Of a stretch of 9,708 bases of DNA, positions 54 to 8,618 are shown in pieces. The stretch comes from a virus. Position numbers and translations under genes: made by a program. Where the stretch lies: the UHGV virus genome UHGV-0797466; one strand, given 5' to 3'. The notes beneath the pieces are model-generated. The model ran no database searches and was not told the origin of the DNA. It was given only the letters and a program-made list of their open reading frames with translations. The first letter of the stretch is position 1; every line of letters begins with the position of its first letter.

Positions 54-476
54 TTAAAACGGTATGTTATCCCCGTACGGATCATCATTCCCCGCCTGTT
101 GTTTTGCCCTGTTCAGCGCGTCAGTAGCCTGGCCCTGTTGACCTTTTTTGCCGCCCAGTCGCGCCGTTCGCGCACTGATTACACTGTCTGCGATAACCTG
201 CCAGCCCTGCCGCGTTTCTCCGTTCTGCCCAGTCCACTGGCTGATCTGCATGTTACCCGCCACGCTCAGGAGTTCACCCTTGCGGTGCCTTTCCAGTGCT
301 TCGGCCTGTCTGCCAAATGCCAGGACGGATAACCACATCGTCGCCGTTCCGTCATCTGCCTGGCTGCACGGAAGGGGGACCGCCATACGCGCCAGCGTCA
401 TCGGTGTGCCCTTGCTGGTCTGTTTTACCTGCGGGTCGTCCACCAGCCGCCCGTAAGCGGCTATCTGTGCTGTCAT
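54..476 (-). CDS. ssb: Single-stranded DNA-binding protein (SSB, OB-fold) of phage/plasmid type
   Basis: 140-aa ORF. The core resembles E. coli SSB as remembered (TMWLSVLAFGRQAEALERHRKGELLSVAGNMQISQWTGQNGETRQ vs [42 protein letters not shown]). It has a Gly/Gln-rich linker and an acidic tail ending DNIPF (E. coli SSB ends DDDIPF). ATG at 474-476 overlaps the upstream stop (ATGA); SD-like GGAGAGGTGG lies upstream. Confidence 0.85.
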   Translation of the reverse strand: MTAQIAAYGRLVDDPQVKQTSKGTPMTLARMAVPLPCSQADDGTATMWLSVLAFGRQAEALERHRKGELLSVAGNMQISQWTGQNGETRQGWQVIADSVISARTARLGGKKGQQGQATDALNRAKQQAGNDDPYGDNIPF

Positions 477-751
477 GATTCCACCTCTCCGGTTTTAACG
501 TTGATGGTTGTTACCTGTTCCGCTTCGGCAATCTCCCGTTCTGTCAGCGTGGCAAAGTTTGCCGCCGTCGTGGTCATGAATGCGCTTATCAGTTCGGGAT
601 GTGCTTTCGCGTATCCTTCCCCCGCGTGGCGGTCTATCGTTCTGATTGCCACCTTTAAAGCGTGCTCTGTCATGTCTAACGCGCGATATTTCGGTTCTGT
701 TCTGTCTCTGCGTTTTTTGAGTGATTTATTAAATTTCCCTGAAGTGTGCAT
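473..751 (-). CDS. Hypothetical small basic protein (92 aa) between the origin and ssb
   Basis: ATG at 749-751 preceded by SD-like GAGGGGG (762-768, about 10-nt spacer). Stop overlaps the ssb start. Lysine/arginine-rich N-terminus. No family recognised. Confidence 0.5.
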   Translation of the reverse strand: MHTSGKFNKSLKKRRDRTEPKYRALDMTEHALKVAIRTIDRHAGEGYAKAHPELISAFMTTTAANFATLTEREIAEAEQVTTINVKTGEVES

Positions 752-801
752 ATTTATTTTTACCCCCTCGTTTAAAAAGTTTTGAGTTGTGCCTCCCCTT
801 G

Positions 802-1026
802 TCTACCTTATCTACCTTAGTGGCCCTCATGCCAGTAATGGCGCGGCTTTCAGCGGGGTAGAGTGCTTTTATCCACTATCTACCCCGTGTCTACCTCCCT
901 GTCTGACTCAGGTAAAATCAGGTAGAGAGGGTAGATAGTGGGTAGACAGTAAAAAAAAGCTATCTACCTAACTTAATGCACTGAATTAAATGTATTTTTC
1001 TTTACTCAGGTAGACAGGGTAGACAG
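802..1026. repeat. Iteron field, putative replication origin
   Basis: At least 11 copies of the hexamer core TCTACC / GGTAGA in about 225 bp: TCTACC at 802, 811, 879, 890, 963; GGTAGA at 857, 921, 930, 941, 1009, 1018. Extended form GGTAGACAG appears three times. An A8 tract (951-958) and an AT-rich stretch (971-1003) are embedded. It sits directly downstream of the primase/helicase gene, as P4 ori/crr iterons sit near alpha. Confidence 0.7.
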
Positions 1027-1039
1027 CAATTACAAAAAA

Positions 1040-2794
1040 TTATAAAAACGCGTCGCACTCGTCTGTTGTTATTGCGTTAGTCTGCGTTACTCCCTTAACT
1101 TTCCGCGTAATATATTCATGTCCGTAAACTTTCGCGGCTGGCTTCATAGCCTTGCCAAAGTCATTTACGTTTAGCGGTTTGCTCCTGCCTGCGTACGCCA
1201 TAAACGCCAGATAGACGCGGTAAAGGCTGTTTCTGGTCGTGTACTTCACTGAATCGCCACCGCCGCCCATCATCAGGCCGCGTGCTTCCTCCAGAAAATT
1301 CAGGAACTGGCAAAACTCAATAACCGGATCCGTCTGTTGCTTTATTGCCAGTGCTTCATCACCGTCACGCTGTTCCAGTAGTAAAGCCCGTGCTTTCTCA
1401 GAGTCGGTAAAGTTCGCCAGCAATCGGCGGATAATGACAGGGATTTCAGCCGCAATCTTTTCCGGTAGCTCCCTGTCTTTTTCGGCCTCACTGACGATAT
1501 TGTCGAAACGGAAAATCACGCGACGACGTGCCACACCTCCGGCCCGTTCGGTGAATATCATCGGGTTGTTGTTGGTCGCCAGCACCACCGCCCTGATTAC
1601 CGCCGTAAAACGCTTTTCATATTTCGGGTTAATTTCCACGGGGTCACCGCCCGTGATTTTCTTGATGCCCGTTCCTTCGCCTGTATATTTCGGCTGGTCA
1701 GCCAGGACGATAAGACGACTCCCGACAACCTGCGCACGTCCACCAGCATCATCAAGCGATGTCATTTCAGCGCTTACCGTGTTCTGTTTCCCTGCCAGAA
1801 GGCTGGCTATGTGCGTGAATGTACTTTTACCGCTCCCGCCGTCTCCGGTGGCCTCAATAAACATCTGCCAGTCGTACCGGTTCGCCATAATCATGTACAG
1901 CGCGGCACATATACGCATCATCTTGCGCGGGTCTTTTCCGGCTGCGTGCTTAAGCCATTTATGAAAGTTTGGCGCGTTATCGCGGATGTTCTCCCCTGGT
2001 GCTGGTGGCGTGTACTCAATGCCGTTGTTCGTGGTGATCCAGTTCTCCGGCGTGTGCGGGGAAAATTCCCCCGTTTTCAGGTCAAGCGCACCATTGGCGA
2101 ACGGCAGCAAATCGCCGGACGGCTCGCCCATTGGTTCGGCAATAACTTTTAACGCTTCCACGGCGTTATTGATTACGCGCTTGCTGAAAGTGGCCCTGTG
2201 CTCTGAATAGATCGCCACCATTTCGCGGCTAAGTTCCATTGTGCTGACCGGACACCATACCCCGCCGCGCCATACGTGAACGATTTCACTTTCAGGATGT
2301 ACGCAAACGCCATCAAAGCGATCGGCAAGCAGCTGCGCGCGCTCACTGTCCGCCATCTGCGAAAGTTGCGCCTTTTGCTTTACCGGAAGCTCAATGACCA
2401 GACCATCAGAAAGATTCTGGCGCTCACGGGCCAGATATTCGCGCCAGTTCTCCACCTTCTGACCGTGCATACCATCAGGGTAAAAATTTGCATCCTGAAT
2501 ATCTGCCGCCGCCAGCTTCTGACCAATCTTTTTGGTCTCCACTAAATCCAGTTCTCCGGCCTGGTACAGCCTTACGCGCTTTTTCCCATCCGGAACAATT
2601 TTCAGCGCATCAAGTTCGGCAAGCTGATTTGGCCCAAGCCACACAGGCGGCACATTATCGCCGGATGCGGGGCCGTCCTGCTCCTGCCACTGTTTTGCAT
2701 GTGACCACGCATCACTACCCGCGAAAATAATTACCTCTGTGTCTTTGTGTTTTATTCCGCGTGGTTGTTTTTTTACGTTCGGTGCCAGTTTCAT
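1040..2794 (-). CDS. P4 alpha-like primase/helicase (phage/plasmid primase with P-loop NTPase domain)
   Basis: 584-aa ORF with Walker A motif GDGGSGKST. General resemblance to P4-family primase C-terminal / D5-type NTPase proteins. ATG at 2792-2794 overlaps the upstream stop (ATGA); SD-like CAGGGGT lies 5 nt upstream. An iteron field lies immediately downstream. Confidence 0.85.
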   Translation of the reverse strand: MKLAPNVKKQPRGIKHKDTEVIIFAGSDAWSHAKQWQEQDGPASGDNVPPVWLGPNQLAELDALKIVPDGKKRVRLYQAGELDLVETKKIGQKLAAADIQDANFYPDGMHGQKVENWREYLARERQNLSDGLVIELPVKQKAQLSQMADSERAQLLADRFDGVCVHPESEIVHVWRGGVWCPVSTMELSREMVAIYSEHRATFSKRVINNAVEALKVIAEPMGEPSGDLLPFANGALDLKTGEFSPHTPENWITTNNGIEYTPPAPGENIRDNAPNFHKWLKHAAGKDPRKMMRICAALYMIMANRYDWQMFIEATGDGGSGKSTFTHIASLLAGKQNTVSAEMTSLDDAGGRAQVVGSRLIVLADQPKYTGEGTGIKKITGGDPVEINPKYEKRFTAVIRAVVLATNNNPMIFTERAGGVARRRVIFRFDNIVSEAEKDRELPEKIAAEIPVIIRRLLANFTDSEKARALLLEQRDGDEALAIKQQTDPVIEFCQFLNFLEEARGLMMGGGGDSVKYTTRNSLYRVYLAFMAYAGRSKPLNVNDFGKAMKPAAKVYGHEYITRKVKGVTQTNAITTDECDAFL

Positions 2795-3090
2795 TTCTTA
2801 CCCCTGAATACGTTAAGCATCTTTTTTATTTCCTGAATATTGGCGCGTGCTTTCTCCCTGCTGGTGGGCACGTTACGCGGTACGGCCTGCACCAGAGAAA
2901 AATCACGATCGAACTGATAAACAGGCATCACGCAATCATATTCGTAGCCTTCACGACGGTAGGTTACGCGCCGTTCCTCCACGCCCTTAATCATTACCGT
3001 GCCGCCGTACTGGTCGCGGTAAATATCACCGCGCATGAATTTAGTGCGAGTTTTGCCACTGGCAGTTAAGCCAGAATATTTAAGTTTCAT
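2791..3090 (-). CDS. Hypothetical protein (99 aa), translationally coupled to the primase gene
   Basis: ATG at 3088-3090 with GGAGAA 8 nt upstream. Stop overlaps the primase start. No family recognised. Confidence 0.6.
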   Translation of the reverse strand: MKLKYSGLTASGKTRTKFMRGDIYRDQYGGTVMIKGVEERRVTYRREGYEYDCVMPVYQFDRDFSLVQAVPRNVPTSREKARANIQEIKKMLNVFRGKK

Positions 3091-3095
3091 TATTT

Positions 3096-3326
3096 TTATT
3101 CTCCGGTGTGGAGCGCTTTATTATTCTCGTGAATTGCCATAGCCTTATTGAGTTCATCAATAACAGGTGTCAATAATGTCTGAACAGCGGCAAACATTAA
3201 TGATGAATGATCTTCGCCACCTTCCGGCACTTCAATTAATTTAATTAACAACGCATTCATTTCGCGTGCTTTAATTAATGCGTTTTCAGAGTGGATTAAT
3301 ACTTCAAAAGGGATTTTATGCATCAC
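3096..3326 (-). CDS. Hypothetical small protein (76 aa) in the AT-rich island
   Basis: Starts ATGATG at 3321-3326 with AGGGAGA 7 nt upstream. Overlaps the upstream gene by 11 nt. Sequence is visibly AT-rich. Confidence 0.5.
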   Translation of the reverse strand: MMHKIPFEVLIHSENALIKAREMNALLIKLIEVPEGGEDHSSLMFAAVQTLLTPVIDELNKAMAIHENNKALHTGE

Positions 3327-3546
3327 AAATTTTCTCCCTTATTCTTTTAATGTCCTCATTAAGGATGTCTGTAACTTTTATCAGCGAGTTTTTGGCAATT
3401 ATTTTTATTGTTTTAAGTTTTCTTTTGTCGTGCTCCGACTGTGATTTTCTCTCCATAATCTCCACCATGTGGGTAACATCAACGAGCGCACGTATCAGTA
3501 TTTGCATTGCTTCTTCTGCTGCGTCCGGTGTGGTTTTATTGCACAT
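3316..3546 (-). CDS. Hypothetical small protein (76 aa) in the AT-rich island
   Basis: ATG at 3544-3546 with strong SD GGAGGGG 3-5 nt upstream. Overlaps the 3' end of the 89-aa ORF in another frame. Charged, probably helical. Confidence 0.5.
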   Translation of the reverse strand: MCNKTTPDAAEEAMQILIRALVDVTHMVEIMERKSQSEHDKRKLKTIKIIAKNSLIKVTDILNEDIKRIREKICDA

Positions 3547-3764
3547 GTACCCCTCCGCATTTTTTCGTTAGAAATAAGCGTTCTTCTTTCCTGTTCATCG
3601 CTCAGGAATACGCAGACCTCACCGCTAAGGCGTTTAAGTAAGCCGATGATTGCCCCTGATTCGCTGTCGGTCATCATGCCAGGGTAATCCTCTGCCAGTG
3701 CGCAAATAACTTCGATTTGGTGGGCGCGTTCTGCTGCCTGTTGTAGTGTGATTTCCTGACTCAT
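3495..3764 (-). CDS. Hypothetical protein (89 aa)
   Basis: ATG at 3762-3764 overlaps the stop of the upstream Icd-like gene (ATGA). The C-terminal about 17 aa overlap the next ORF, so the true 3' end is uncertain. Confidence 0.45.
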   Translation of the reverse strand: MSQEITLQQAAERAHQIEVICALAEDYPGMMTDSESGAIIGLLKRLSGEVCVFLSDEQERRTLISNEKMRRGTCAIKPHRTQQKKQCKY

Positions 3765-4222
3765 AAGCCTACCCCCTGACGAATACGGGCGACAAAAATC
3801 AGATGTGCGTGCGGCAGCTGTGCACGTGCTTCGCGCTCAGTGGCAGCGGTAACGGTGAATATTGCAATGCTGTCTGTCAGGCACTGCATAAAGCGCCAGA
3901 CAAAATAAGGGCGTGCGGATACAGCCATGTGAAAGGCTCCCAGATGAATTTTAAGGAGTCTCGCTACTACGCTGTCAAACATGGTGGCGAGACGTAACAG
4001 GGTTGACAGACTGGTCATCTGGAAACCAGCGAGCACAAAGGCTCCCCCGTTACGCCCCGCCATAATGCGGGTATGGGTAGGTTTACGGACACAAAAAAAC
4101 CGCTTATCGGATGTGGGCGGCTGTCCGCCAGATGTATTCAGGCTGTCAAACCCGGTCGCCATGTGGGCGACGGGGGAAGCATACAGCCCCGTGATAATTT
4201 TTTGCAAGCGGTTTTTACGCAT
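3761..4222 (-). CDS. Ash/Icd-like protein (153 aa) with C-terminal Icd-like motif
   Basis: C-terminus TEREARAQLPHAHLIFVARIRQG matches the remembered Icd-like motif (SE.EAR ... LSFAAR). ATG at 4220-4222 overlaps the upstream stop (cATGcgTAA); SD-like AGGGG lies 7 nt upstream. An internal start at 3928 (GGGAG SD) is an alternative. Confidence 0.6.
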   Translation of the reverse strand: MRKNRLQKIITGLYASPVAHMATGFDSLNTSGGQPPTSDKRFFCVRKPTHTRIMAGRNGGAFVLAGFQMTSLSTLLRLATMFDSVVARLLKIHLGAFHMAVSARPYFVWRFMQCLTDSIAIFTVTAATEREARAQLPHAHLIFVARIRQGVGL

Positions 4223-4418
4223 GATATGACCCCTGGCGAATACGGGCAGCGAATACCATCACGCAGCCAGCCGGAGATTGCTGACGCGCTTCCTGTTCGC
4301 TGGTGGCCTCGATGGTAATCACGCGCGGTTGTGCCGTGCTCAGGGCGATAAAACGCCAGATGTATTTATTCAGGTTGTACGAGTCCCGCCCTTGCGGGTG
4401 TCTGGTATAATTTCTCAT
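4215..4418 (-). CDS. Host cell division inhibitor Icd-like small protein (67 aa)
   Basis: This is the C-terminal 67 codons of the 382-aa ORF in the track; the rest is judged spurious. ATG at 4416-4418 with GAGG 5 nt upstream. C-terminus SEQEARQQSPAGCVMVFAARIRQG is paralogous to the next gene and fits the Icd-like motif. Confidence 0.6.
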   Translation of the reverse strand: MRNYTRHPQGRDSYNLNKYIWRFIALSTAQPRVITIEATSEQEARQQSPAGCVMVFAARIRQGSYHA

Positions 4419-4439
4419 AGCTACCTCGATACTTTCGCT

Positions 4440-4614
4440 ATCGTTGGTGGTTAGAAGCCCTGCATGTGTTCCAGCACTGCGGGGCTTTGCTGTACATACA
4501 CCACAATCATTAGTGTGTGTACAGATTAAATTTAAGTGCGCTACAGTGTCAAGTGTTTTATTTACACACCTTTTGGTGTAATGTATGCACACCTCAAAAT
4601 AACCGGACATTCTG
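4440..4614. promoter_or_regulatory. Divergent promoter/operator region between the leftward operon and the RHH gene
   Basis: Lies between divergent starts at 4418 (-) and 4615 (+). Imperfect 9-bp-stem hairpin AAGCCCTGC (4453-4461) / GCGGGGCTT (4478-4486). Palindromic motif TTACAC...GTGTAA / ACACC-TTTT-GGTGT at 4561-4580 and related TACATACACC at 4492-4501. Decamer AACCGGACAT at 4600-4609. Confidence 0.5.
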
Positions 4615-4920
4615 ATGGCAACAGGAAATATCAACAGCAGATCGCAAATGAAAAATATCCGCTTCCCCCATGATGTAATCGAGGAAATGGAAAATTCGAA
4701 AACGGAAGGGGAAACAATAGCCGCTTTCGTGATTACAGCCGTTCGCGGTGAGATCGCCCGCCGCCAGGCAGAAGGAAGCGGAGAAAATCCCCTGGTTTCT
4801 TCGCTCGATGCACTGGCGCAGGTGGAAAAAATCGGAGTCAAAGCAGCCGAGGAGATCGGGCAACTCATCACCGTCGCGCGTGAAGAACTCCAGCGTCGCA
4901 AGGCCAAAGAGCAGGAGTGA
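4615..4920 (+). CDS. Arc/Mnt-like ribbon-helix-helix DNA-binding protein, candidate satellite repressor
   Basis: Segment KNIRFPHDVIEEMEN aligns with the P22 Arc N-terminus as remembered (FNLRWPREVLDLVRK), followed by a helical, charged C-terminal extension. It is the only convincing plus-strand gene, divergent from the main operon, and followed by a strong terminator. Start could be M1 (4615) or M12 (4648); neither has a strong SD. Confidence 0.65.
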   Translation: MATGNINSRSQMKNIRFPHDVIEEMENSKTEGETIAAFVITAVRGEIARRQAEGSGENPLVSSLDALAQVEKIGVKAAEEIGQLITVAREELQRRKAKEQE

Positions 4921-4962
4921 CCATCACCAGCGCCGTGGTGTAAGGTATTACGGCGCATTGCT

Positions 4963-5151
4963 ATGCAGGACAACACAATGACCGATAAAGAATTGACCAA
5001 AACATTATCACCGGCACGGAAAAGACGGCGCAGAAAGATAGAGCATGAATCAGAAAGATTCGCGCCATGTGCTTTTGCCCTTGAGCAATTCCTTAAAGAG
5101 TACAGGGAAAAGCGCTCATTGCAGGTATGGCAACGAACTGAACCAGACTGA
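4963..5151 (+). CDS. Possible small basic protein (62 aa) downstream of the RHH gene
   Basis: ORF in the same frame as the RHH gene, separated from it by a single TGA (4918-4920). No convincing SD. It fills most of the gap before the terminator. Weak call. Confidence 0.3.
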   Translation: MQDNTMTDKELTKTLSPARKRRRRKIEHESERFAPCAFALEQFLKEYREKRSLQVWQRTEPD

Positions 5152-5246
5152 TTGCATTGCCCACCAGCCTGATAACGGCTATCATCCCCGTGCTTATGTT
5201 TGGGATCACACACACAAACGGCGCAGCGGGTTATCTGTTCAGAAAG

Positions 5247-5274
5247 GCGGCTCCATTTCGGGGCCGCTTTTTTT
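5247..5274 (+). terminator. Rho-independent terminator ending the rightward (RHH) transcription unit
   Basis: 8-bp stem GCGGCTCC (5247-5254) / GGGGCCGC (5260-5267) with one G-U pair, loop ATTTC, followed by T7 (5268-5274). Confidence 0.75.
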
Positions 5275-5396
5275 ATACCTGAAAAACCCCAATTTTGTTG
5301 TTTTTCAGTTTCACCAGGGCGAACGAATCCCCGCCCACGTTCTGGCGTATATTCAATCTTCATGGTTATAGCTCTGTGTTCAGATGATTGATGTGT

Positions 5397-7204: not shown

Positions 7205-7228
7205 GTTTTACCCCCTCTTTACGAAAAA

Positions 7229-7620
7229 GTGACTACACCAGTGACTACACCGTTCGGTGCACTGTATAGAAACAACGTGGAACAAATAGACACAAGAAAT
7301 ATACAGGCGGGTCATCTTTCCAGGGGGAAGCGCGCTAATTCATGAGGGGCGTTAATGTTGATATGGGGATCCCCATAACGGGGCTACCGGATTTTTTTCC
7401 GGTTTAACTGTTAATCAGGCTGGTGGGCTTTACCTGTTTTGTAGGAGTGGTCATTATGACCATTCAGACAATGACCTTAATCAGAACTTTTCGCTAAAAA
7501 ATGACGTTGGTCACGTCGTCCGGAAAGCACAAAATCCCGTCAATTTTTAATTAACGGTTAAACCGTCTTTTGTCACGGCGTGTCACTGGTTGTCACTCTC
7601 CGTCACGGTATGTCGCTACT
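7229..7620. other. attP-like region: arm-type repeats on both sides of a palindrome-rich central segment
   Basis: Tandem 12-bp repeat GTGACTACACC(A/G) at 7229-7240 and 7241-7252, 25 bp upstream of int. Five 10-bp-phased repeats at 7571-7620 (TGTCACggcg, TGTCACtggt, TGTCACtctc, cGTCACggta, TGTCgCtact). GTCAC is the reverse complement of GTGAC, and GTCACT resembles the lambda Int arm-site core (AGTCACTAT) as remembered. Between them: perfect palindromes TATGGGGATCCCCATA (7362-7377) and GGTCATTATGACC (7449-7461), and a hairpin at 7386-7403. Confidence 0.5.
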
Positions 7621-7622
7621 CG

Positions 7623-7904
7623 TTAACGCCGTAACCGCTCCGGCTTCTTCCAGTGGTACGTAATTTTCTCCGTTTCCCGATACAGTGCCACGCGGCGATT
7701 GTAGGCCAGCATTTCAAGAACGCGGATCCGTATGTTGCGCATATCCACATCATTAAGCTGGATACCATCACGGCGCATCACCTCAGCAACCACACGCGCG
7801 TAATTTTCGGCGGTCACGCTGTCCGGCTGCGTGGCCTGTTCGTCATGCTGCTGGCTGATTCCGGTAACGCGGCGGATTAATCCCAGTAGTTCGGCTTCTG
7901 TCAT
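7623..7904 (-). CDS. Hypothetical protein (93 aa) between cos and the att region
   Basis: The track ORF (7623-8102) would run across the cos site. The internal ATG at 7902-7904 (MTEAELLGLIRR...) has an SD-like GGGGG upstream and leaves cos intact. No family recognised. Confidence 0.5.
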   Translation of the reverse strand: MTEAELLGLIRRVTGISQQHDEQATQPDSVTAENYARVVAEVMRRDGIQLNDVDMRNIRIRVLEMLAYNRRVALYRETEKITYHWKKPERLRR

Positions 7905-8183: not shown

Positions 8184-8618
8184 TTACTGTTCTGTATCGG
8201 CTGATTGCTCCATGCTGGCACGGCGAACGCTTATGGCATGACGCCACCCAGCCAGAAAGCCAGCCATTTTATTTCGTGCCTTGCTCACATCTTCCGGTGA
8301 ATAGCCGTAAATCTGCAAACCTTCATCAAATCGATGTTCTGTTTCTTCACTGGAGTACTCGTCACGCTCAGATGAAAGCAGCCTGGCAAACATAATTTTT
8401 TCCAGCGCACTGGTTTCTACGTGATATCTGATGGTCTCAAGACGGCTTTTACCTGAAGACCAAAGCAATGTATGCCCGATGTGATAACCGCCAGACTTTC
8501 CGCGATCCGCATTAAGATACGGCATCCCCTGTTTGGTCCATGCGCGAATAGTGGTTCTGTTAACCTTGAAATGTTCAGCTATTTCCTGCTGACTTACAAA
8601 ACAAGCTTTATCAATCAT
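8184..8618 (-). CDS. Nu1-like terminase small subunit homolog (winged-HTH); candidate Rpp-type packaging redirector
   Basis: N-terminus VSQQEIAEHFKVNRTTIRAWTKQGMPY aligns with lambda gpNu1 (VNKKQLADIFGASIRTIQNWQEQGMPV) as remembered. 144 aa. ATG at 8616-8618 with AAGGT SD. No terminase large subunit follows, which fits a satellite TerS-like protein rather than a phage terminase operon. Confidence 0.8.
   Translation of the reverse strand: MIDKACFVSQQEIAEHFKVNRTTIRAWTKQGMPYLNADRGKSGGYHIGHTLLWSSGKSRLETIRYHVETSALEKIMFARLLSSERDEYSSEETEHRFDEGLQIYGYSPEDVSKARNKMAGFLAGWRHAISVRRASMEQSADTEQ

What the first reader, a model, noticed from the sequence alone, without database searches (positions are those of the whole stretch)
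3096..3560. AT-rich island of small ORFs embedded in the replication operon
About 450 bp covering the two 76-aa ORFs is visibly AT-rich (roughly one-third GC by eye, not computed) against roughly half GC in the neighbouring genes. The ORFs are tightly coupled, with SD sequences and overlapping stops and starts. They occupy the position where P4 encodes epsilon (helper derepression) and orf151 between the immunity region and alpha. This looks like an exchangeable cargo slot; the proteins are candidates for helper manipulation or anti-defence functions. No family is recognisable by eye.
Basis: partly seen in the sequence, partly recalled or inferred. Interest (0 to 1): 0.5.

Follow-up and report, generated by a model that had tools for sequence, protein, structure and literature searches.

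The report
AT-rich small-gene cassette in E. coli PICI
The AT-rich stretch is real: it holds two small, selected, two-helix protein genes of unknown function that form a swapped-in allelic block in the early operon of a well-known E. coli phage satellite, just upstream of the virulence regulator gene rgdR. This is an ordinary mosaic feature of the element.

Summary
Window 3096-3560 has GC 0.383 against a window mean of 0.496. Both 76-aa ORFs have low GC3 (0.34 and 0.40), Shine-Dalgarno sites and overlapping stops and starts.

The element is not P4. It is an EcCICFT073-type phage-inducible chromosomal island (PICI), 91-98% identical to EcCICFT073. It carries an Rpp packaging protein, lambda-like capsid genes, origin repeats after the primase, and a C4 antisense RNA plus icd module upstream.

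Window 3122-3517 is the only part of the operon with no DNA match to EcCICFT073, so the island is an allelic replacement block.

- orf76a belongs to a family found in all 70 related loci examined, always 5 nt upstream of the DUF4222 gene (the RgdR homologue). It is a core gene, not cargo, and is AT-rich in every allele. dN/dS is 0.24.
- orf76b is one AT-rich allele of an accessory, highly variable family. dN/dS is 0.35.

Both are predicted two-helix hairpins with no informative sequence or fold match. Neither was found in 50,697 phage records, and nearly all named homologues are from Escherichia or Shigella.

The function is untested. My best guess is that they are protein-binding modulators, with orf76a possibly tied to RgdR. 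A role like P4 epsilon is unsupported. Interest is modest.

The parts
3096..3326 (-). orf76a (family F1, allele s4). 75 aa from the ATG at 3323, or 76 aa from the GTG at 3326. An acidic predicted two-helix hairpin protein. It is the core gene of the slot and lies 5 nt upstream of the RgdR-like gene.
   Evidence: - ORF listed.
- 123 homologous clusters, nearly all named ones Escherichia/Shigella.
- phrog_2196, E 4.6e-10.
- AlphaFold2 pLDDT 81.6, helices at residues 6-31 and 38-71.
- dN/dS 0.24 at pS 0.36 and 0.19-0.24 against diverged alleles.
- Present in 70 of 70 slots.
- GC 0.372, GC3 0.34.
3316..3546 (-). orf76b (family F2, allele s10). 76 aa, a basic predicted two-helix hairpin protein. 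It is an accessory gene and is linked to orf76a allele s4.
   Evidence: - ORF listed.
- 24 close clusters; 281 clusters with a profile search.
- phrog_5146, E 4.5e-8.
- AlphaFold2 pLDDT 87.3, helices at residues 9-34 and 38-75.
- dN/dS 0.35 against the strain C5 allele at pS 0.26.
- Allele s10 is found only together with F1 allele s4, in 10 of 10 cases.
- pI 8.9, while the other F2 alleles average 4.8-6.4.
- GC 0.377, while the other F2 alleles have 0.49-0.51.
3122..3517 (.). The segment with no blastn match to EcCICFT073: the replaced allelic block. Its edges fall inside the 3' end of orf76a and the 5' end of orf76b.
   Evidence: blastn of the window against EcCICFT073: 148-3121 at 90.9% identity, 3518-3796 at 98.2%, and nothing in between.
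3495..3764 (-). orf c (family F6; phrog_1478). The first gene after icd. In this window it is frameshifted to 89 aa; the common form is 76 aa. It is an optional member of the slot.
   Evidence: A6 against A8 in the A-run. The family is present in about 18 of 70 slots.
2791..3090 (-). RgdR-like DUF4222 protein. 99 aa, RGD at residues 20-22, pI 10.0. It is coupled to orf76a upstream and overlaps the primase start (ATGA).
   Evidence: - PF13973, E 5.3e-24.
- pI and sequence.
- RgdR is described as a 99-aa DUF4222/RGD regulator of the LEE island and motility, and as present in all analysed E. coli PICIs (PMC3378721, PMC10877973, PMC6092414).
1040..2794 (-). Primase/replication initiator with D5_N, DUF5906 and Pox_D5 domains. 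It is the last gene of the coupled chain.
   Evidence: Pfam hits; phrog_864; 40% identity to P4 alpha residues 324-762.
3761..3928 (-). Probable true icd-like gene, about 55 aa. The listed 153-aa ORF 3761-4222 over-extends across the C4 RNA gene.
   Evidence: The NCBIfam phage_ICD_like domain covers residues 107-149 of the 153-aa ORF. GGAG followed by ATG at 3928 is read from the sequence. The C4 RNA lies at 3980-4067.
3980..4067 (-). C4 antisense RNA gene, a P1/P7-type immunity RNA, at the head of the operon that contains the island.
   Evidence: Rfam RF01695, 72.6 bits against a gathering score of 45.
4135..4184 (-). a1/b1 target element of the C4 RNA.
   Evidence: Rfam RF03163, 46.8 bits against a gathering score of 46.7.
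795..1030 (.). Replication origin: at least 10 copies of TRTCTACC in both orientations around an A-rich centre, 3' of the primase. This shows that the AT-rich island is not the origin.
   Evidence: Repeat families D1-D6 and inverted repeats I1-I25. An origin 3' of the replication gene is described for PICIs in PMC6092414.

Best explanation
The island is a recombined allelic block inside the early operon of an EcCICFT073-type E. coli PICI. The operon order is promoter, C4 RNA, icd, small genes, rgdR, primase. The block carries two real, translationally coupled genes for roughly 75-aa two-helix hairpin proteins that occur only in satellites.

**orf76a.** This is the AT-rich s4 allele of a core family that always occupies the last slot position, directly before rgdR.

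**orf76b.** This is an unusually AT-rich, basic allele of an accessory family. That family has a conserved N-terminal helix and a highly variable second helix.

**Origin of the block.** Exchange happens by homologous recombination at conserved gene ends, not by cargo insertion.

**How I think they work (inferred, not shown).**
- Both proteins are made only when C4-RNA-mediated repression of the operon is lifted.
- They fold into hairpins that probably pair into four-helix bundles.
- They act by binding other proteins in fixed proportion, not as enzymes or DNA binders.
- orf76a is acidic (pI about 5) and has a conserved polar patch (HSENAL and PVIDEL) at the open end of the hairpin. I think it most likely binds a conserved satellite or host partner, and basic RgdR (pI 10) is the leading candidate.
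- orf76b is an optional factor that adds specificity.

**What is shown.** Composition, coding status, coupling, selection, mosaic boundaries, core versus accessory distribution, and predicted fold.

**What is inferred.** C4-RNA control, oligomerisation, and the binding partners.
For: **Identity of the element**
- An RppC homologue, E 4.5e-31.
- The same gene order as EcCICFT073 and 91-98% DNA identity outside 3122-3517.
- Origin repeats 3' of the primase.
- C4 RNA and its a1/b1 target above the Rfam gathering scores.

**The ORFs are real genes**
- dN/dS is 0.24 for orf76a alleles and 0.35 for orf76b. Reading frames stay intact at 82.6% DNA identity.
- Shine-Dalgarno sites and overlapping junctions are present.
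- Both ORFs match PHROG families.
- RefSeq annotates both in many genomes.

**Core versus accessory**
- Family F1 is in 70 of 70 slots, always last. Ten slots contain F1 alone (228-232 bp).
- Family F2 is in at least 42 of 70 slots.
- There are 17 gene arrangements.
- F1 relatives at 51-62% identity also sit 5 nt before DUF4222, in elements with DUF927 or AAA_25 initiators and with either HK97-type or lambda-type capsid genes.

**Link to RgdR**
- Pairwise F1 and RgdR distances correlate (Mantel r 0.49, p 0.0005). The equally adjacent RgdR-initiator pair gives r 0.13.
- The charges are opposite: pI 4.7-5.9 against 10.0.
- No match to either of the two F1 alleles tested (window s4; CFT073 s1) in 50,697 phage records, and RgdR has one weak hit.

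**Fold and conservation**
- Both models are confident two-helix hairpins.
- Conserved residues cluster at the open end of the hairpin. For orf76a, dN/dS is 0.14 there and 0.34 in the loop-proximal half.
Against: - No experiment or complex prediction links orf76a to RgdR or to any other partner.
- The pairing breaks down at greater divergence. A distant F1 relative is followed by an 89-aa gene with no DUF4222 hit. An E. albertii DUF4222 gene is preceded by an unrelated 61-aa ORF.
- The Mantel correlation is confounded by linkage and by the way the loci were sampled.
- Fold searches return only generic hairpins, best E 0.13-0.29, so the fold says nothing about function.
- Low GC3 persists across diverged alleles. 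This hints at a constraint on the DNA or RNA that the protein-only model does not explain.
- Control by the C4 RNA is assumed by analogy with P1, P7 and P4.
Confidence: 0.5

Rival explanations
1. Helper-derepression role. The small proteins would be anti-repressors like P4 epsilon or P1 Ant. They would be made from the gene positions just after the immunity RNA and icd, and would bind a helper prophage repressor to induce the helper.
For: - The positions match. P1 has c4-icd-ant (from my own knowledge). P4 has cI/icd, epsilon, orf151, orf106, alpha. This window has C4 RNA, icd, small genes, primase.
- Allelic diversity would fit diverse helper repressors.
Against: - No Ash family hit and no similarity to epsilon.
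- A distant orf76a relative lies immediately after a genuine Ash gene, so the two coexist instead of substituting for each other.
- orf76a is conserved across satellites whose capsid modules differ, which suggests different helper types.
- GN PICIs are described as activated by their helper phage, by a still-unidentified phage factor (PMC6092414); nothing in the passages read says a PICI induces its helper.
Confidence: 0.12
2. Interference or counter-defence role. The variable small proteins would inhibit helper or competitor phage functions, or host defence systems, and their alleles would diversify in an arms race.
For: - The F2 family has a highly variable second helix and many alleles.
- The slot is mosaic.
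- Both families are specific to satellites.
Against: - No sign of positive selection: dN/dS is 0.14-0.39.
- No PADLOC hit. That library covers defence systems, not counter-defence.
- In EcCICFT073, deleting rppA alone restored lambda plaquing almost fully, and only genes after the origin were screened for interference (PMC6739421). The slot alleles of EcCICFT073 are therefore not major blockers of lambda.
- orf76a is invariably present, which does not fit optional cargo.
Confidence: 0.13
3. The AT-richness itself is the functional feature. The tract would act at the DNA or RNA level, for example as an H-NS-bound silencer, as an internal promoter giving basal rgdR expression, or as poorly structured mRNA that keeps translation coupled. 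The ORFs would be secondary.
For: - GC3 stays at 0.34-0.44 in every F1 allele although synonymous divergence reaches 0.5, next to a gene with GC3 0.54.
- A chromosomal rgdR deletion has a phenotype without PICI induction, and lineage-specific divergence immediately upstream of rgdR was noted as possibly affecting its expression (PMC3378721).
Against: - Purifying selection on the protein sequences and intact frames.
- No promoter-like site on the gene strand within the island, and no excess of such sites in the region.
- No origin-type repeats; the origin lies elsewhere.
- Other F2 alleles have normal GC.
- This role could coexist with protein functions instead of replacing them.
Confidence: 0.15
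4. Replication-control role. orf76a would act like P4 Cnr, modulating the initiator or recruiting a host replication factor.
For: - It is always in the coupled chain that ends in the initiator.
- In P4 the gene just before alpha (orf106; from my own knowledge this is cnr) regulates replication.
Against: - orf76a goes with three unrelated initiator types: D5_N primase, DUF927 and AAA_25.
- Its divergence tracks the initiator poorly (Mantel r 0.14).
- No similarity to orf106/DUF5375.
Confidence: 0.1

Closest known systems
EcCICFT073, the model Gram-negative PICI of E. coli CFT073, and its hypothetical genes between icd and c1493 (rgdR)
   Same: - The same element type and gene order, and 91-98% DNA identity in the flanks.
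- The same slot, ending in an F1-family gene directly before the DUF4222/RgdR gene.
- An identical orf c protein in its common 76-aa form.
   Different: - CFT073 carries F2, F3 and F1 allele s1 (617 bp) where the window has F2 allele s10 and F1 allele s4 (396 bp), with no DNA-level similarity.
- The window alleles are more AT-rich, and orf76b is basic.
- In the papers read here, none of these genes has a published function.
P4 epsilon / orf151 / orf106 (cnr) segment between the cI-icd immunity region and alpha
   Same: - The position in the operon.
- Small, translationally coupled genes.
- An immunity RNA upstream and an alpha-related primase downstream.
   Different: - No sequence similarity and no Ash or DUF5375 domain.
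- The element is a PICI with lambda-like capsid genes and Rpp, not a P2-dependent satellite with sid, delta and psu.
- An F1 relative coexists with a true Ash gene.
P1/P7 immI operon (c4 RNA - icd - ant)
   Same: C4 RNA, its a1/b1 target and an Icd-like gene stand at the head of a coupled operon.
   Different: The downstream genes are unrelated to Ant. Control of this operon by the RNA is inferred, not shown.
RgdR (ECs1581/C1493), the PICI-encoded DUF4222 regulator of LEE type III secretion and motility
   Same: It is the immediate downstream neighbour, coupled to orf76a. It is satellite-specific and co-varies with orf76a.
   Different: RgdR is a basic protein with no sequence similarity to the island proteins. 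The island proteins are helical hairpins. No interaction has been tested.

Membership tests
Ash / P4 epsilon family (PF10554) | Sequence match to the Ash profile or to P4 epsilon | tested here: not met
   No Pfam hit at E up to 0.1. blastp against P4 epsilon found nothing at E up to 10.
Ash / P4 epsilon family (PF10554) | Position directly after the immunity RNA and icd, and before the primase | tested here: met
   However, a distant orf76a relative lies after a real Ash gene.
Ash / P4 epsilon family (PF10554) | Binds and inactivates the helper repressor | not testable with these tools
   Needs a prophage induction or binding assay.
P4 Cnr (orf106, DUF5375) | Sequence similarity to orf106 | tested here: not met
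   For orf76a and orf76b: no Pfam hit and no blastp hit to orf106.
EcCICFT073-type Gram-negative PICI (the element that holds the island) | int, alpA, a primase with origin repeats 3' of it, Rpp, and capsid and decoration genes | tested here: met
P1/P7-type C4-icd immunity operon (context) | C4 RNA, its a1/b1 target and an Icd-like gene in that order on one strand | tested here: met
   RF01695 at 72.6 bits, RF03163 at 46.8 bits (only just above its gathering score of 46.7), and NF033153 at 49.9 bits.
P1/P7-type C4-icd immunity operon (context) | Downstream genes repressed by the RNA through translational coupling and polarity | not testable with these tools
   Coupled junctions are seen. The regulation itself needs expression data.
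PHROG families phrog_2196 (orf76a) and phrog_5146 (orf76b) | Profile match over the full length | tested here: met
   E 4.6e-10 over residues 2-70, and E 4.5e-8 over residues 1-70. Both families have no known function.
Known anti-phage defence systems (PADLOC-DB) | Match to any component model | tested here: not met
   No hit at E up to 1.
Replication origin or iteron region | Clustered direct or inverted short repeats in the AT-rich tract | tested here: not met
   Only chance-level two-copy repeats. The real repeat cluster is at 795-1030.

The most novel reading that the evidence does not exclude
orf76a-family proteins are dedicated partners (anti-activator, chaperone or specificity subunit) of RgdR. 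If so, swapping this AT-rich allele block between PICIs would tune RgdR-dependent control of type III secretion and motility in pathogenic E. coli. Alternatively, the conserved AT-rich tract is an H-NS-sensitive gate that sets basal rgdR and primase expression from the integrated island.
Probability: 0.2. Interest if true: 0.6.

Novelty: new member of a known kind. Interest (0 to 1): 0.3.

Why it matters
If orf76a is a working partner of RgdR, two things would follow. A satellite gene now annotated as hypothetical in E. coli genomes would become part of the circuit by which PICIs influence LEE expression, adherence and motility. It would also explain the lineage-specific divergence upstream of rgdR that was noted in O157 strains.

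More generally, the analysis corrects the picture of this region. It is not a free cargo slot but one fixed core gene plus optional neighbours, exchanged as allele blocks at conserved gene ends. It also places the whole early operon of EcCICFT073-type PICIs behind a P1/P4-type C4 RNA-icd module, which none of the PICI passages I read mentioned.

As things stand the island is an ordinary mosaic feature with no known function.

Tried and rejected
- **Family scans.** Pfam, NCBIfam and PADLOC gave nothing for either ORF.
- **Solved structures by sequence.** Profile searches against the PDB gave nothing below E 0.08.
- **Relationship between the two families.** A profile-profile comparison gave probability 1.3%, so they are not paralogues detectable by sequence.
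- **Fold searches.** orf76a against the PDB and BFVD, and orf76b against the PDB, returned only generic helical hairpins with best E 0.13-0.29. The afdb50 library was not available.
- **P4 proteins.** No similarity to epsilon, orf151 or orf106.
- **Phage records.** tblastn of orf76a, of orf76b and of the CFT073 F1 allele found no match.
- **Species-representative genomes.** No orf76a relative was found. This scan works from short patterns, so absence is not strict.
- **All-protein profile search.** Only 16 clusters at 50% identity among 1.84 billion proteins.
- **Origin or regulatory-repeat reading.** Rejected: no iterons and no excess of promoter-like sites.
- **Antisense 97-aa ORF at 3278-3571 (+).** Rejected: it is interrupted by a stop in the diverged strain C5 allele, and it is the expected mirror of a Lys/Glu/Ile-rich frame.
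- **Literature.** Searches for DUF4222 with satellites, EcCICFT073, and PICI small proteins found no study of these ORFs. A search on icd in a PICI paper returned only the isocitrate dehydrogenase gene.

Full report

Yes. Window 3096-3560 has GC 0.383. The two ORFs have 0.372 and 0.377, against a window mean of 0.496 and 0.48-0.54 in the flanking genes. Third-position GC is 0.34 and 0.40, against 0.50-0.66 in the neighbouring genes except alpA (0.42). The stretch ranks in the lowest 3.5% of all 465-bp windows. The lowest such window in the sequence (0.359, starting at 3018) overlaps it.

Reading the minus strand confirms Shine-Dalgarno-like sequences and overlapping or abutting stops and starts from icd through to the primase.

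Two small corrections apply. orf76a most likely starts at the ATG at 3323, giving 75 aa. The '89-aa' ORF is a frameshifted copy of a common 76-aa protein: its A-run is A6 here, A8 in 13 related loci and A7 in one.

**2. What is the element?**

It is not a P4-like satellite in the strict sense. The following points identify it:
- The 144-aa ORF at 8184-8618 is a homologue of RppC, PDB 6HLK, E 4.5e-31.
- The element carries a lambda gpE-type capsid gene and a decoration gene.
- TRTCTACC repeats cluster at 795-1030, just 3' of the primase, which is where PICI origins lie (PMC6092414).
- The gene order equals that of EcCICFT073, the model Gram-negative PICI.
- blastn against EcCICFT073 gives 90.9% identity over window 148-3121 and 98.2% over 3518-3796.

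The DUF4222 gene at 2791-3090 is a homologue of RgdR. It is 99 aa, has RGD at residues 20-22 and a pI of 10.0. RgdR is a regulator of LEE type III secretion and motility, reported to be encoded by all analysed E. coli PICIs.

Upstream of the island, Rfam finds a C4 antisense RNA at 3980-4067 and its a1/b1 target at 4135-4184, followed by an Icd-like gene. The island therefore sits in an operon of this order: promoter, a1/b1, C4 RNA, icd, orf c, orf76b, orf76a, rgdR, primase.

This does parallel the P4 order (cI/icd, epsilon, orf151, orf106, alpha) and the P1 order (c4, icd, ant; from my own knowledge).

**3. What is the island?**

Window 3122-3517 is the one part of the operon with no DNA match to EcCICFT073. 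The edges of this gap lie inside the 3' end of orf76a and the 5' end of orf76b. CFT073 has 617 bp there, holding three genes. The island is therefore an allelic replacement with conserved junctions.

In complete E. coli genomes:
- the flanks (window 2700-4300) match 1,285 of 5,426 genomes;
- only 174 genomes carry any part of the island;
- only 40 carry both genes.

I compared 70 loci: 69 found through the RgdR-like protein, plus the window itself. The space between icd and rgdR ranges from 228 to 1863 bp and shows 17 family-level gene arrangements.

The orf76a family (F1):
- It is present in all 70 loci and is always the last gene, 5 nt before rgdR.
- Ten loci contain nothing else in the slot.
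- Relatives at 51-62% identity hold the same position in islands with DUF927 or AAA_25 initiators and with HK97-type or lambda-type capsid genes.
- orf76a is therefore a core gene with alleles: s4 here in 21 loci, s1 in 44, and two rarer ones.

The orf76b family (F2):
- It is optional, present in at least 42 of 70 loci.
- It has a conserved N-terminal helix and a highly variable second half.
- Its s10 allele, the one in this window, occurs only together with F1 allele s4, in 10 of 10 cases.

Composition across alleles:
- Every F1 allele is AT-rich, with GC 0.38-0.41 and GC3 0.34-0.44.
- F2 allele s10 has GC 0.383, while the other F2 alleles have 0.49-0.51.

**4. Are these real genes?**

Yes.
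- orf76a alleles give dN/dS 0.24 at synonymous divergence 0.36.
- Against a copy only 82.6% identical in DNA (strain C5), orf76a gives 0.19 and orf76b gives 0.35, with no indels.
- Both match PHROG families of unknown function.
- RefSeq annotates both.
- A 97-aa antisense ORF is broken in the diverged allele, and I dismiss it.
- The tract holds no origin-type repeats and no promoter-like site on the gene strand.

**5. What are the proteins?**

AlphaFold2 predicts a two-helix hairpin for each, with pLDDT 81.6 and 87.3. There is no significant match by sequence or by fold in the PDB or BFVD. The two families are unrelated by profile comparison.

Neither family is found in 50,697 phage records. 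orf76a has only 16 clusters at 50% identity among 1.84 billion proteins. Nearly all named homologues are from Escherichia or Shigella.

Conserved residues of orf76a (HSENAL in helix 1, TLLxPVIDEL in helix 2) should face each other at the open end of the hairpin. dN/dS is 0.14 there, against 0.34 in the loop-proximal half. All F1 alleles are acidic. orf76b allele s10 is basic.

**6. How does it most likely work?**

Nothing here shows function. My preferred reading is that both are small proteins that act by binding other proteins, made when the C4-controlled operon is switched on.

orf76a would serve a partner common to all these islands. RgdR is the leading candidate, for these reasons:
- strict adjacency and coupling within this group of islands;
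- opposite charge;
- both are restricted to satellites;
- the divergence of F1 and RgdR correlates (Mantel r 0.49), far better than that of the equally adjacent RgdR-initiator pair (r 0.13).

Against this reading:
- The pairing dissolves in more distant elements.
- The correlation is confounded by linkage.
- Persistent low GC3 suggests an extra constraint at the DNA or RNA level.

The epsilon-like reading rests on position only. It is weakened by the lack of any Ash signature and by a distant orf76a relative that sits right after a true Ash gene.

The interference reading is weakened by purifying selection. It is also weakened by the published finding that deleting rppA alone restores lambda plaquing on EcCICFT073 (PMC6739421).

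**7. Novelty and verdict**

The element, its neighbour RgdR and the general mosaicism of satellites are known. The two ORFs are annotated hypotheticals, and I found no study of them.

What this analysis adds:
- the exact boundaries of the replaced block;
- the distinction between the core gene and the accessory gene;
- evidence that both are under purifying selection;
- the predicted fold of each;
- the C4-icd context.

I rate the finding as a new member of a known kind, with modest interest (0.3). The most novel reading still open is a functional orf76a-RgdR pair, or an H-NS-sensitive AT-rich gate, that affects virulence regulation. I put its probability at about 0.2.

Noticed in passing
window 3980-4067 (-) and 4135-4184 (-): A C4 antisense RNA (RF01695, 72.6 bits) and its a1/b1 target (RF03163) stand at the head of the early operon of this EcCICFT073-type PICI. 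The annotated 153-aa 'Icd-like' ORF at 3761-4222 runs across the RNA gene, so the true icd is probably 3761-3928. None of the PICI passages I read mentioned this RNA.
   Followed up: partly
window 2791-3090 (-): The DUF4222 protein is an RgdR homologue: 99 aa, an intact RGD motif at residues 20-22, pI 10.0. RgdR is a published regulator of LEE type III secretion and motility (PMC3378721).
   Followed up: partly
window 795-1030: A dense cluster of at least 10 TRTCTACC repeats in both orientations around an A8 tract, just 3' of the primase. This is the likely replication origin.
   Followed up: partly
window 8184-8618 (-): The 144-aa ORF is a homologue of the Rpp (redirecting phage packaging) proteins, with E 4.5e-31 to RppC (PDB 6HLK). 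This points to lambda/phi80-type cos helpers.
   Followed up: partly
window 3555-3560 (A-run in orf c, 3495-3764 -): The homopolymer run is A6 here, A8 in 13 related loci and A7 in one. The 2-nt loss shifts the frame, changes the last residues, lengthens the protein from 76 to 89 aa, and makes it overlap orf76b by 52 nt. It could be a sequencing error or slippage.
   Followed up: partly
window 7205-7640: The sequence next to int (7226-7433) matches the far end of integrated EcCICFT073, and the packaging genes follow. The window is therefore circularly permuted relative to the integrated island, as expected for an excised, concatemeric or tandem form. A perfect tandem repeat, AGTGACTACACC twice at 7228-7251, lies beside int and may be an integrase arm site.
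   Followed up: partly
window 4215-5363 (-) and 4615-4920 (+): The 382-aa ORF is an artefact that spans Icd-like pseudogene fragments annotated in RefSeq relatives. A YlcI/YnfO-family gene lies on the opposite strand, beside an AT-rich tract at about 4400-4700 that may hold divergent promoters.
   Followed up: no
L096 3645-4899 (Logan SRR18516942 contig): A more distant satellite has this order: AlpA, AntA, several small genes, a true Ash (epsilon-like) gene, an orf76a relative, an 89-aa gene and a 125-aa gene with no Pfam match, then a D5_N primase. This shows that the orf76a family extends beyond islands carrying rgdR.
   Followed up: partly
L016 slot (IMG/VR UViG_2534681697_000028), 1863 bp: One related island has a much larger slot with GC 0.54 and several unique ORFs of 109-123 aa before the orf76a-family gene. 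This looks like a true cargo insertion at the same place.
   Followed up: no
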